From: Escherichia coli
GTDB taxonomy: Bacteria; Pseudomonadota; Gammaproteobacteria; Enterobacterales; Enterobacteriaceae
Direction: 5' to 3' (one strand)
Assembly: GCF_003334385.1 (NCBI RefSeq)
Contig: NZ_QOWN01000006.1
Length of the DNA: 64,000 nucleotides
In this document: positions 62,956-64,000 of the stretch, piece after piece
Position numbering within the stretch: the stretch's first letter is position 1
How the letters are laid out: each line of letters opens with the position of its first letter
The notes under the pieces: generated by a model
Told to the model about the DNA's origin: nothing
Databases searched by the model: none
What the model saw: the letters and a program-made list of their open reading frames with translations, nothing else
Translations under genes and position numbers: made by a program

Positions 62956-63759
62956 TCAGCGCCAGGGATTCCTTTTCCTGAATCCCTGCGCCAGATAATG
63001 GCGGATCGCATCCTGCGCCCAGGCATAGCGCAGGGAGTGAGGGGAAAATTCCCCCTTCAGCCCCACCTTAATGACCTGTTTGTGCCAGCTCTCCAGCGCC
63101 ATTTTGAGATCAGGCTTGTCGATCAGCCTGCCATTGTGTCGATCCGCGACCAGTAAGGACTTTTCCAGAGCCTTCCTGACTGCGCCAGTATCCAGAACTG
63201 TCGTATGGCGGGGACGCCCACCTTTGGTGCCAAACACCACTTTCAGCCGGTTTTCCCCGCGCTCAATGGCTTTCAGCCACGTTTTCAGCGACAGTGAACT
63301 CTGTACCGCTTCCTGCGAGCGTAACCCCATCAGTCGCGCGATCTCCAGCGCCGCAGCCAGCCCCGCATCCTCAGCGCGGGCTTTCTCCATAACCTGCTGG
63401 TAATGTTCCGGCGTAATGGCGCGGCGCGTACCGTTGCGTGAAGCGCCCGACACTCCCAGCGCCTTATTGGTTAGGCGTGGATGCTCCACCACCTGCCTGC
63501 GTCCAGCCTGTCTCAGCACGGCCTGCAGTGCCGCCATATCGTTTTGCAGCGTTCGTAAACCAATATCCTGCTCCAGCCGTTCCTCAATGTAGCATTCGAT
63601 ATGGCGAACCCTGATCTGCTCCACCCGCTGGATCTGGATATTCAGCGCCCGTAAATGTTCACTGAACCGTTTTGTAATATGGATACGGTCATTCACTGTT
63701 TTAAAGCTGCCGCCCGCTTTCTTCGCCAGCGCCTTCATTTCACTGCTTAATTTACTCAT
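62956..63759 (-). CDS. Recombinase-like protein (tyrosine-recombinase-type R and HxLRY motifs; canonical catalytic Tyr region not evident)
   Basis: 267-aa ORF with AGGGG RBS; LMGLRSQEA and HSLRYAWAQ motifs; ORF ends about 9 residues after HxLRY. Confidence 0.45.
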   Translation of the reverse strand: MSKLSSEMKALAKKAGGSFKTVNDRIHITKRFSEHLRALNIQIQRVEQIRVRHIECYIEERLEQDIGLRTLQNDMAALQAVLRQAGRRQVVEHPRLTNKALGVSGASRNGTRRAITPEHYQQVMEKARAEDAGLAAALEIARLMGLRSQEAVQSSLSLKTWLKAIERGENRLKVVFGTKGGRPRHTTVLDTGAVRKALEKSLLVADRHNGRLIDKPDLKMALESWHKQVIKVGLKGEFSPHSLRYAWAQDAIRHYLAQGFRKRNPWR

Positions 63760-64000
63760 GAATCCCCTGCAACATAAACAAACAGTCTCCGGCGTGTGCT
63801 GTTTGGCTGCGCCAGAACGATACCTTCACGCCGGAGTGGCTGGTTGTTGAGGTTTAGGGAGTTTCAGGCTGTACGCGGTACAGACTGCCTGACGAAGCAG
63901 GGGTATCTCCGGGGCTTCTAGCCCATAAGCGCTAACTTAAGGGTTGAACCATCTGAAGAATGCGACGCCTCGGTGCCTCGTTAAGACGATGCCTCGCGTT

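What the first reader, a model, noticed from the sequence alone, without database searches (positions are those of the whole stretch)
62956..63840. Recombinase-like gene with non-canonical C-terminus and a 10-bp inverted repeat in its leader
The 267-aa protein has box-I-like (LMGLRSQEA) and box-II-like (HSLRYAWAQ) tyrosine-recombinase motifs but terminates only about 9 residues later, so the usual catalytic Tyr about 30 residues after the HxLR box is not evident. It may be a truncated integrase, a divergent recombinase or directionality factor, or a regulatory derivative. Its leader holds ctccggcgtg...cacgccggag (63787-63836) as a possible operator or attenuator, and its 3' flank carries the palindromes gtgattacaggggtaatcac (about 62667) and cgttacgcagtaacg (about 62834).
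Basis: partly seen in the sequence, partly recalled or inferred. Interest (0 to 1): 0.45.

Follow-up and report, generated by a model that had tools for sequence, protein, structure and literature searches.

The report
Frameshifted recombinase-like pseudogene behind EFASI motif
The short "recombinase" is an ordinary broken gene: one missing base cuts the catalytic tail off a 294-residue tyrosine-recombinase-fold protein of an E. coli genomic island, and the repeat in front of it belongs to a known conserved RNA-like element (EFASI), itself cut by an insertion sequence.

Summary
The ORF, both motifs, the 10-bp inverted repeat and both palindromes are real. The "non-canonical C-terminus" is an artefact of a 1-bp deletion between window 62978 and 62977. 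Restoring one C gives the 294-aa protein found intact in most E. coli carriers, ending DLGHGDGRGRWVKQVYGYRWKRE and containing the missing His and catalytic Tyr. RefSeq already marks identical alleles as "frameshifted".

The intact protein matches Pfam PF12834 + PF12835 and models as a two-domain tyrosine recombinase. R-K-H-R-H-Y is invariant across the family.

The leader repeat is not a private operator. Its 5' arm lies inside the Rfam motif EFASI (RF02957, function unknown), which precedes this gene family in every enterobacterial homologue examined, chromosomal or ICE/plasmid-borne. The repeat forms an extra covarying helix beyond the Rfam model.

In the window, IS421 has replaced the 5' strand of the EFASI outer stem, and the neighbouring P4-like integrase carries a stop codon. 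The locus is a decayed tRNA-Asn island module.

From context and recent literature, the intact gene is most plausibly an MpsA/MOB_M-type mobilisation relaxase. I could not test that membership.

The parts
62876..63759 (-). Pseudogene of a 294-aa tyrosine-recombinase-fold protein (Pfam Phage_int_SAM_2 + Integrase_1; PGAP name 'integrase domain-containing protein'). It is 884 nt here and 885 nt when intact.
   Evidence: RefSeq marks identical alleles as frameshifted.
62977..62978 (-). Site of the 1-bp deletion. A C is missing: intact GGATTCAGCGAAAAGG has become GGATTCAGGAAAAGG. The deletion follows codon F260. It removes the invariant S261, E264, L273-G-H275-G, G278-R-G and Y287 from the reading frame.
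62956..62976 (-).
63814..63924 (-). Remaining part of the EFASI motif (Rfam RF02957). The internal hairpins and the 3' strand of the outer stem (GGTATCGTTCT, 63824-63814) are kept. The 5' strand of the outer stem is lost.
   Evidence: The cmscan hit at 63814-63940 scores 59.3 bits (gathering threshold 51.2), against 94-106 bits in intact loci.
63787..63836 (-). The 5' arm (63836-63827) lies in a conserved 'unpaired' stretch of the EFASI model. The 3' arm (63796-63787) lies downstream of the model. The 30-nt loop contains the EFASI outer-stem 3' strand, and a U-rich tract follows the repeat.
   Evidence: Pair 2 changes U-A to C-G and pair 6 changes G-C to A-U. Pairs 7 and 10 change to wobble pairs.
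63925..64000 (.). Terminal 76 nt of an IS421 (IS4-family) insertion, 164-165 nt upstream of the ATG. The element continues beyond the window end.
   Evidence: a 1347-bp insert relative to the IS-free ATCC 8739 locus.
60256..61518 (+). Neighbouring P4-like island integrase pseudogene, convergent with the frameshifted gene. It has one in-frame stop at codon 177 (60784-60786).
   Evidence: RefSeq notes 'internal stop' in relatives.
60019..60094 (+). tRNA-Asn gene that serves as the island's attachment site. It is downstream of nac and cbl, so asnV-like.
62668..62687 (.). Palindrome GTGATTAC-N4-GTAATCAC in the 3' flank. It is conserved in all E. coli variants of the island and absent from Salmonella. 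Its function is unknown.
62833..62847 (.). Palindrome CGTTAC-N3-GTAACG, 29 nt after the restored stop codon. It is partly degraded in ATCC 8739 and has no T-run on the gene's strand.

Best explanation
SHOWN. The 267-aa ORF is a recently inactivated copy of a 294-aa gene. A single C was deleted after codon 260, so translation leaves the frame and stops 7 codons later. The third catalytic His (H275) and the Tyr nucleophile (Y287) are lost.

The gene belongs to a conserved module at the tRNA-proximal end of enterobacterial genomic islands: [EFASI structured element] - [PF12834/PF12835 tyrosine-recombinase-fold gene] -> <- [P4-like integrase] - tRNA.

In this window all three parts are damaged. 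The gene is frameshifted. IS421 replaces the 5' strand of the EFASI outer stem. The integrase has a nonsense codon. The module is a fossil with no expected catalytic activity.

The 10-bp repeat is a conserved, covarying helix that extends EFASI. It is either a pseudoknot with the outer stem or a 3' terminator or attenuator hairpin.

INFERRED, about 50% confidence. The intact protein is not the island's integrase. It is a mobilisation protein of the MpsA/MOB_M type, a tyrosine-recombinase-like relaxase. It would act on, or with, the structured region upstream of its own gene, as in SGI1 where oriT and the sgm-sRNA lie upstream of mpsA. That would let such islands hitch on SPI-7/SGI-4-type (MPF-G) conjugative elements, which carry the same STAXI-EFASI-gene arrangement.
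For: Frameshift:
- The three-way DNA alignment shows one missing C, and the same allele is annotated 'frameshifted' in CP139339 and CP058355.
- The intact 885-nt alleles are WP_000041051 and WP_000041054.
- Restoring the C gives 294 aa with the LGHGDGRGRWVKQVY tail.
- Of 396 complete E. coli genomes with the gene, only 28 match the frameshift 80-mer exactly. In every 98.8% row of the spread sample the match spans 81 nt in the record, one base more than the 80-nt query.
- A 267-aa cluster with the same tail exists in public assemblies.

Family:
- Pfam matches are 2.4e-59 and 2.4e-39.
- R147, K179, H241, R244, H275 and Y287 are invariant down to 31% identity.
- 133 of 150 50%-identity representatives keep the GH..VY tail.
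- The AF2 model has pLDDT 88.5 and matches Xer, IntI, lambda Int and Cre over both domains.

Module:
- The gene lies next to a P4-like integrase at tRNA-Asn or pheU-like sites in E. coli, Salmonella and Citrobacter.
- EFASI lies directly upstream in every enterobacterial locus with the gene, at 86-106 bits.
- The EFASI hit is weakened to 59 bits in the window by IS421.
- The repeat covaries.

Relaxase inference:
- PF12835 is used as the MpsA-type 'INT_DTR_like' signature (PMC10484663).
- MOB_M relaxases are described as mostly chromosomal, annotated as integrases, 96% next to an integrase, and found in MPF-G ICEs or alone in IMEs (bioRxiv 10.64898/2026.01.13.699239).
- Homologues at 46-48% identity sit behind STAXI+EFASI in MPF-G ICE-type elements.
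- In SGI1, oriT and an essential sRNA lie upstream of mpsA (PMC6414798, PMC9299015).
Against: Against the pseudogene call: very little. Apart from the frameshift the copy is 99% identical to intact alleles, so a truncated DNA-binding product could still be made.

Against the relaxase inference:
- I could not obtain MpsA, MobK or TcpM sequences, or the MOB_M profile, so homology beyond the shared fold is untested.
- MpsA's reported catalytic spacing (H247...Y319) differs from this family's (H241...Y287).
- The MPF-G elements that carry the gene also encode a TraI-domain (MOB_H-type) protein, so they do not need a second relaxase.
- No experiment exists for this family.
- EFASI is described in Rfam as a probable trans-acting sRNA of unknown function.
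- No sigma-70-like promoter was found upstream.
Confidence: 0.85

Rival explanations
1. The intact family is a true site-specific recombinase rather than a relaxase: a second integrase, a multimer or tandem-array resolvase, or an invertase. The window copy is simply its pseudogene. The upstream inverted repeats would be its recombination or regulatory site.
For: The full R-K-H-R-H-Y catalytic set and the two-domain recombinase fold, including a core-binding domain, are present. The best NCBIfam and PHROG matches are XerC and integrase. MPF-G elements with the gene already have a TraI-domain protein. Small Burkholderia plasmids carry it beside par and rep genes, where a resolvase would make sense.
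Against: Islands and ICEs already have a dedicated integrase next to the tRNA or at the element end. No pair of matching target sites was seen. The 30-nt spacer of the repeat does not resemble a 6-8-bp recombinase core site. Two groups treat PF12835/MOB_M-type proteins as relaxases.
Confidence: 0.35
2. The truncated 267-aa protein is still made and has acquired a non-catalytic role, such as DNA-binding repressor or dominant-negative partner.
For: The core-binding domain and most of the catalytic domain are intact, and no other lesion is present in the ORF. The allele is found in 28 complete genomes and at two different tRNA-Asn sites.
Against: It is a minority allele (28 of 396 carriers) among intact 294-aa alleles. 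Other E. coli lineages carry different lesions (frameshift plus stop, deletions), which points to neutral decay. Its upstream element is disrupted by IS421 and the partner integrase is dead. The last catalytic-domain helices that carry H275 and Y287 are missing.
Confidence: 0.07
3. The full-length protein is restored by programmed -1 ribosomal frameshifting or by transcriptional slippage at CAG-GAA-AAG-G.
For: A -1 shift near the A-rich run would restore the frame.
Against: There is no X-XXY-YYZ slippery heptamer at the site. The great majority of homologues are encoded in a single frame. PGAP calls the allele a frameshifted pseudogene.
Confidence: 0.02
4. The missing base is a sequencing or assembly error and the gene is intact in the organism.
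For: Single-base indels are common errors in some long-read assemblies.
Against: The identical deletion is present in 28 independent complete genomes at two chromosomal sites, and in a 310-member cluster of 267-aa products. The site is not a homopolymer.
Confidence: 0.03

Closest known systems
PGAP 'integrase domain-containing protein' family (Pfam PF12834 Phage_int_SAM_2 + PF12835 Integrase_1), e.g. WP_000041054.1 of E. coli ATCC 8739
   Same: The sequence is 99% identical up to codon 260. The locus (tRNA-Asn island), the neighbours and the upstream EFASI element are the same.
   Different: The window copy lacks one C and therefore lacks residues 261-294, including H275 and Y287. IS421 is inserted 164 nt upstream.
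EFASI RNA motif (Rfam RF02957; 'Enterobacteriaceae, Frequently Around STAXI and Integrases'; function unknown)
   Same: The leader matches the covariance model above its gathering score. It has the described position upstream of an 'integrase' gene. In ICE-type relatives it lies a few hundred bp downstream of STAXI.
   Different: The 5' strand of the outer stem is replaced by IS421.
MpsA of Salmonella Genomic Island 1 and the MOB_M class (MpsA, MobK of pIGRK, TcpM of pCW3): tyrosine-recombinase-like conjugative relaxases
   Same: The fold is that of a tyrosine recombinase with a catalytic Tyr. The gene is encoded in an integrated island beside a separate integrase. A GC-rich, repeat-rich structured region lies directly upstream of the gene. 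Members are routinely annotated as integrases. PF12835 is used in the literature as the MpsA-type signature.
   Different: Membership is not demonstrated here. This family has its own N-terminal SAM-like domain, whereas SGI1 supplies a separate MpsB. The HxxR-to-Tyr spacing is 43 residues, against about 69 in MpsA. No transfer or nicking data exist for this family. The window copy is dead.
Xer / lambda Int / Cre-type site-specific tyrosine recombinases
   Same: The two-domain architecture and the R-K-H-R-H-Y active site are the same in the intact allele.
   Different: Sequence identity is only 12-17%. No PDB sequence hit was found, and the XerC HMM gives 25 bits against a 335-bit cut-off. The HxxR-to-Tyr spacing is longer, and the protein ends 6-10 residues after the Tyr.

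Membership tests
Tyrosine recombinase superfamily (DNA_BRE_C) | Two-domain fold: an N-terminal core-binding helical domain plus a C-terminal catalytic domain. | tested here: met
   The AF2 model of the intact allele has pLDDT 88.5. Its top Foldseek hits (XerA, IntI4, lambda Int, Cre, Tn1549 Int, XerH) align over about 300 columns.
Tyrosine recombinase superfamily (DNA_BRE_C) | Complete catalytic set Arg-Lys-His-Arg-His/Trp plus the Tyr nucleophile, encoded in one frame. | tested here: not met
   The intact family has invariant R147, K179, H241, R244, H275 and Y287. In the window ORF, H275 and Y287 are out of frame after the 1-bp deletion.
Pfam PF12834 + PF12835 'integrase domain-containing protein' | Significant full-length matches to both HMMs. 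| tested here: met
   PF12835 matches at 2.4e-59 (model 1-149 of 149) and PF12834 at 2.4e-39 (1-91 of 91).
Pfam PF12834 + PF12835 'integrase domain-containing protein' | Typical length of 285-300 aa, ending shortly after the DLGHGDGRGR..VY motif. | tested here: not met
   Homologues are mostly 285-300 aa, and 133 of 150 representatives keep the motif. The window ORF is 267 aa and lacks it.
MOB_M / MpsA-type tyrosine-recombinase-like relaxases | Score above the CONJscan MOB_M profile cut-off (84 bits), or significant similarity to MpsA, MobK or TcpM. | not testable with these tools
   The profile and reference sequences could not be reached. The only link is from the literature, where PF12835 is used as the MpsA-type signature.
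MOB_M / MpsA-type tyrosine-recombinase-like relaxases | Genomic setting: chromosomal, beside a separate integrase, in IMEs or MPF-G ICEs. | tested here: met
   The gene is adjacent to a P4-like integrase in all chromosomal loci examined. Homologues occur in MPF-G ICE-type elements. The family is rare on plasmids, with 52 of 72,556 records.
MOB_M / MpsA-type tyrosine-recombinase-like relaxases | A cognate oriT with inverted repeats next to the gene. | tested here: inconclusive
   A conserved, repeat-rich structured region (EFASI, with or without STAXI) lies directly upstream. Nothing shows that it is an oriT.
MOB_M / MpsA-type tyrosine-recombinase-like relaxases | Tyr-dependent site-specific nicking and a requirement for transfer. 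| not testable with these tools
   This is experimental and no data were found for this family.
EFASI RNA motif (RF02957) | Covariance-model score at or above the gathering threshold (51.2 bits). | tested here: met
   The window scores 59.3 bits at 63814-63940 (-). Intact loci score 86-106 bits.
EFASI RNA motif (RF02957) | An intact long-range outer stem enclosing the internal hairpins. | tested here: not met
   The 5' strand is replaced by IS421 sequence, and the cmscan alignment shows many non-canonical pairs there.
Recombination directionality factor (Xis-type) | A small (under about 150 aa) winged-helix or HTH DNA-bending protein without a catalytic domain. | tested here: not met
   The ORF is 267 aa (294 when intact) and has the recombinase fold and domains.
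Programmed ribosomal frameshift gene | A slippery heptamer, with the two-frame arrangement conserved in homologues. | tested here: not met
   There is no X-XXY-YYZ site. Most alleles and all distant homologues are encoded in a single frame.

The most novel reading that the evidence does not exclude
It would be the cis-acting transfer region for a very large, unrecognised class of tyrosine-recombinase-fold relaxases: an oriT that folds as single-stranded DNA, or an sgm-sRNA-like cofactor. Under this reading, hundreds of small tRNA-linked islands in Enterobacterales that carry RHS, T6SS and defence cargo are, or were, mobilisable by SPI-7/SGI-4-type ICEs. The window would then hold a decayed example. 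The idea is partly anticipated by a 2026 preprint that defines oriT families upstream of MOB_M genes, but that preprint does not link them to EFASI or STAXI.
Probability: 0.35. Interest if true: 0.55.

Novelty: already known. Interest (0 to 1): 0.2.

Why it matters
For this window it matters little. The locus is a routine pseudogene in a decaying genomic island, and it is already flagged as such by the public annotation pipeline. It should not be reported as a new kind of recombinase.

The useful by-products concern the intact family:
- The 'integrase domain-containing protein' is always preceded by the orphan Rfam motif EFASI.
- EFASI has an additional covarying helix that the Rfam model does not cover.
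- The same gene-plus-motif module is shared between small tRNA-linked islands and large MPF-G conjugative elements.

If the protein is a MOB_M-type relaxase, this would give EFASI and STAXI a function. It would also help predict which enterobacterial defence and virulence islands can still move.

Tried and rejected
- A PDB sequence search with the intact protein found nothing at E <= 1.
- NCBIfam gave only a sub-threshold XerC match, 25 bits against a 335-bit cut-off.
- PHROGs gave only the generic integrase family phrog_1.
- I tried to obtain MpsA, MobK or TcpM sequences, or the MOB_M profile, for a direct test. pIGRK is not in the plasmid collection. The supplements of the SGI1 papers hold only strain and plasmid tables. 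The supplements of the two classification papers are not held. The SGI-4 oriT paper is not held.
- Cluster look-ups returned only generic names and none of the preprint's seed accessions.
- None of the 150 best representatives has MpsA-like residue spacing.
- I took the MPF-G 'plasmids' that MOB-suite calls non-mobilisable as possible proof that the PF12835 gene is their only relaxase. I rejected this because both elements encode a TraI-domain protein.
- Terminator and promoter scans of the flanks were at chance level. The CGTTAC palindrome is terminator-like only on the opposite strand.
- I first placed the IS421 boundary at about 63916. BLAST against the IS-free locus corrected it to 63924|63925.
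- Programmed frameshifting and sequencing error were considered and rejected (see the rival explanations).

Full report
**Observation.** The ORF at 62956..63759 on the minus strand is real and encodes 267 aa. LMGLRSQEA occupies residues 143-151 and HSLRYAWAQ residues 241-249. The ORF ends 18 residues after box II, not about 9.

The perfect 10-bp inverted repeat is confirmed: CTCCGGCGTG (63836-63827) and CACGCCGGAG (63796-63787), with a 30-nt spacer. Both 3' palindromes are also confirmed, at 62668-62687 and 62833-62847. A simulation of the 157-nt leader expects 0.008 such repeats, so the repeat is not a chance feature.

**The C-terminus is a frameshift.** Translating the three frames past the stop shows that the -1 frame continues SLALTATDLGHGDGRGRWVKQVYGYRWKRE*.

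The region is E. coli chromosomal DNA. In complete genomes it is annotated either as an intact 885-nt 'integrase domain-containing protein' or as the same gene marked 'frameshifted'. Intact examples are WP_000041051.1 and WP_000041054.1.

A three-way alignment shows the only length difference is one missing C. Intact GGATTCAGCGAAAAGG has become GGATTCAGGAAAAGG, between window 62978 and 62977. A RefSeq pseudogene shares this deletion. Re-inserting the C gives a 294-aa protein about 99% identical to the ATCC 8739 protein.

An 80-nt probe across the site matches 396 of 5,426 complete genomes. Only 28 match exactly. In every 98.8% row of the spread sample the match spans 81 nt in the record, one base more than the 80-nt probe. 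The same 267-aa product forms a cluster of 310 sequences in public assemblies. This argues against a sequencing error. There is no slippery heptamer, and the single-frame form predominates, so programmed frameshifting is not credible.

**What the intact protein is.** Pfam gives Phage_int_SAM_2 (PF12834, 2.4e-39) and Integrase_1 (PF12835, 2.4e-59), plus a weak Phage_integrase match.

A profile search of 1.84 billion representatives finds 311 clusters at E <= 1e-30. These are typically 285-320 aa and aligned end to end. Of the best 150, 133 keep a GH...(V/I)Y tail.

In an 11-sequence alignment reaching down to 31% identity, R147, K179, H241, R244, H275 and Y287 are invariant. Every member ends 6-10 residues after the Tyr.

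An AlphaFold model (pLDDT 88.5) matches XerA, IntI4, lambda Int, Cre, Tn1549 Int and XerH across both domains. The fold is therefore not unrelated to recombinases. The window allele lacks H275 and Y287 and should be catalytically dead.

**Context.** The gene lies tail-to-tail with a P4-like integrase next to a tRNA-Asn gene (60019-60094), downstream of cbl and nac. That integrase (60256-61518) has an in-frame stop at codon 177.

The same pair is found in several settings, with variable cargo (RHS, T6SS or defence genes):
- at other tRNA-Asn genes in other E. coli strains;
- intact in strain 2015C-3107;
- at a pheU-like site beside dsbD and cutA in Salmonella and Citrobacter.

Other E. coli lineages carry independent lesions in the gene.

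**The leader.** The 200 nt upstream of the gene are more conserved than the coding sequence. This holds between E. coli, Salmonella and Citrobacter, whose proteins are only 71-75% identical.

Rfam identifies this stretch as EFASI (RF02957). It scores 94-106 bits in the intact chromosomal loci and 86-91 bits in the ICE/plasmid-borne homologues at 46-48% protein identity. In the latter, STAXI lies a few hundred bp further upstream. It was not found upstream of the 31%-identity Burkholderia plasmid homologue. As quoted in PMC12370729, Rfam describes EFASI as 'Frequently Around STAXI and Integrases', of unknown function. For STAXI, Rfam raises the possibility of a single-stranded-DNA role.

In the window EFASI scores only 59.3 bits. 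A 1347-bp IS421 is inserted 164-165 nt upstream of the ATG, at boundary 63924|63925. It replaces the 5' strand of the outer stem.

- Its 5' arm is a conserved 'unpaired' stretch inside the model.
- Its 3' arm lies 17 nt beyond the model's end.
- Its loop contains the 3' strand of the outer stem.

Across lineages the helix is maintained by compensatory changes. Pair 2 changes U-A to C-G and pair 6 changes G-C to A-U. Pairs 7 and 10 change to G-U wobbles. RNAalifold predicts the helix independently.

The helix is therefore a real, unmodelled extension of EFASI. It could be a pseudoknot with the outer stem, a terminator or attenuator hairpin (a U-rich tract follows it), or a DNA-level site. The data do not discriminate between these.

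**Likely function of the intact module.** The islands and ICEs already have a dedicated integrase, so this gene is surplus to integration.

- Bioteau et al. (PMC10484663) use PF12835 as the signature of the MpsA-type atypical relaxase of SGI1.
- A 2026 preprint reports that tyrosine-recombinase-like MOB_M relaxases are the commonest chromosomal relaxases. It says they are usually annotated as integrases, that 96% lie next to an integrase, and that they occur in MPF-G ICEs or alone in mobilisable islands.
- In SGI1, oriT and an essential small RNA lie just upstream of mpsA.

The family studied here fits all of these contextual descriptions. That includes its presence in SPI-7/SGI-4-type MPF-G elements.

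I therefore favour a mobilisation (relaxase) role at about 50%, with a genuine recombinase role as the main rival.

The caveats are substantial:
- I could not reach MpsA, MobK or TcpM sequences, or the MOB_M profile.
- MpsA's published residue spacing differs from this family's.
- The MPF-G elements also encode a TraI-domain protein.

**The 3' palindromes.** GTGATTAC-N4-GTAATCAC is conserved in all E. coli variants of the island even where the flanks have diverged. It is absent from Salmonella. CGTTAC-N3-GTAACG is partly degraded in ATCC 8739. It looks like a terminator only on the opposite strand. Neither has a demonstrable link to the gene.

**Verdict.** The finding is a correctly observed but ordinary pseudogene. 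It is a one-base frameshift of a known, widespread gene family, inside a decayed island module, behind a known Rfam motif that an insertion sequence has truncated. Interest is low.

The modest residual interest lies in three points. The gene family and EFASI are strictly coupled in the enterobacterial loci examined. EFASI has an extra covarying helix. Together they may form a conjugative mobilisation module.

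Noticed in passing
window 60256-61518 (+): The P4-like island integrase next to tRNA-Asn has a single in-frame stop at codon 177 (60784-60786). The same 'internal stop' is annotated in many E. coli genomes, while strains 2015C-3107 and O145 RM9154-C1 have intact copies.
   Followed up: partly
window 63925-64000: The window ends inside an IS421 (IS4-family) element inserted 164-165 nt upstream of the frameshifted gene. This end sequence explains the thousands of extra matches on chromosomes and plasmids in the first similarity search.
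   Followed up: yes
window 55786-60094, and loci L001, L003, L011, L012 and L013: The window holds three identical tRNA-Asn genes (55786-, 57610+, 60019+) with yeeO, cbl and nac between them. The same island module sits at different asn tRNA genes in different strains: asnT next to mtfA, asnV, and others. It is inverted in strain 2015C-3107. The identical frameshift allele occurs at two sites, which implies recombination between the asn loci.
   Followed up: partly
window 62668-62717 (-): A promoter-like site (TTAACC-17-TATTAT, 62717-62689) lies immediately upstream of the conserved palindrome GTGATTAC-N4-GTAATCAC. It faces an AT-rich stretch of about 1.1 kb with no annotated gene, between the two recombinase genes.
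   Followed up: no
window 61771-61804 (-): A long terminator-like hairpin (15 pairs, 4-nt loop) lies in the AT-rich spacer between the pseudogene and the integrase.
   Followed up: no
L004 16196-16367; L005 8160-8344; L009 8156-8340; L012 3819-4003; L013 3843-4030: Every intact island of this type has an isrK plus C4-antisense-RNA pair (Rfam). A 153-aa gene and a small HTH (HTH_35) gene follow it, about 1-2 kb upstream of EFASI. This resembles a P1/P4-like immunity region. In the window's genome it would lie beyond coordinate 64000.
   Followed up: no
L004 about 15025-15070 (-) and alignment A7 columns 731-775: A second conserved inverted repeat, GGCGTCACT...AGTGACGCC, has a variable, self-pairing loop. 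It lies 250-290 nt upstream of the gene in E. coli, Salmonella and Citrobacter. In the window it is separated from the gene by IS421.
   Followed up: no
L019 5152-5302 and 6940-7088; L014 8103-8280 and 18644-18789: In MPF-G ICE-type elements, STAXI copies lie on both sides of the PF12835 gene. MOB-suite labels these elements 'non-mobilizable' although they encode a full MPF-G set, TraD and a TraI-domain protein.
   Followed up: partly
window 63532-63541 / 63597-63606: A second perfect 10-bp inverted repeat (CGCCATATCG / CGATATGGCG, 55-nt spacer) lies inside the coding sequence of the N-terminal domain. Two such repeats in 1.6 kb is unusual, about 2.5% of simulations.
   Followed up: no
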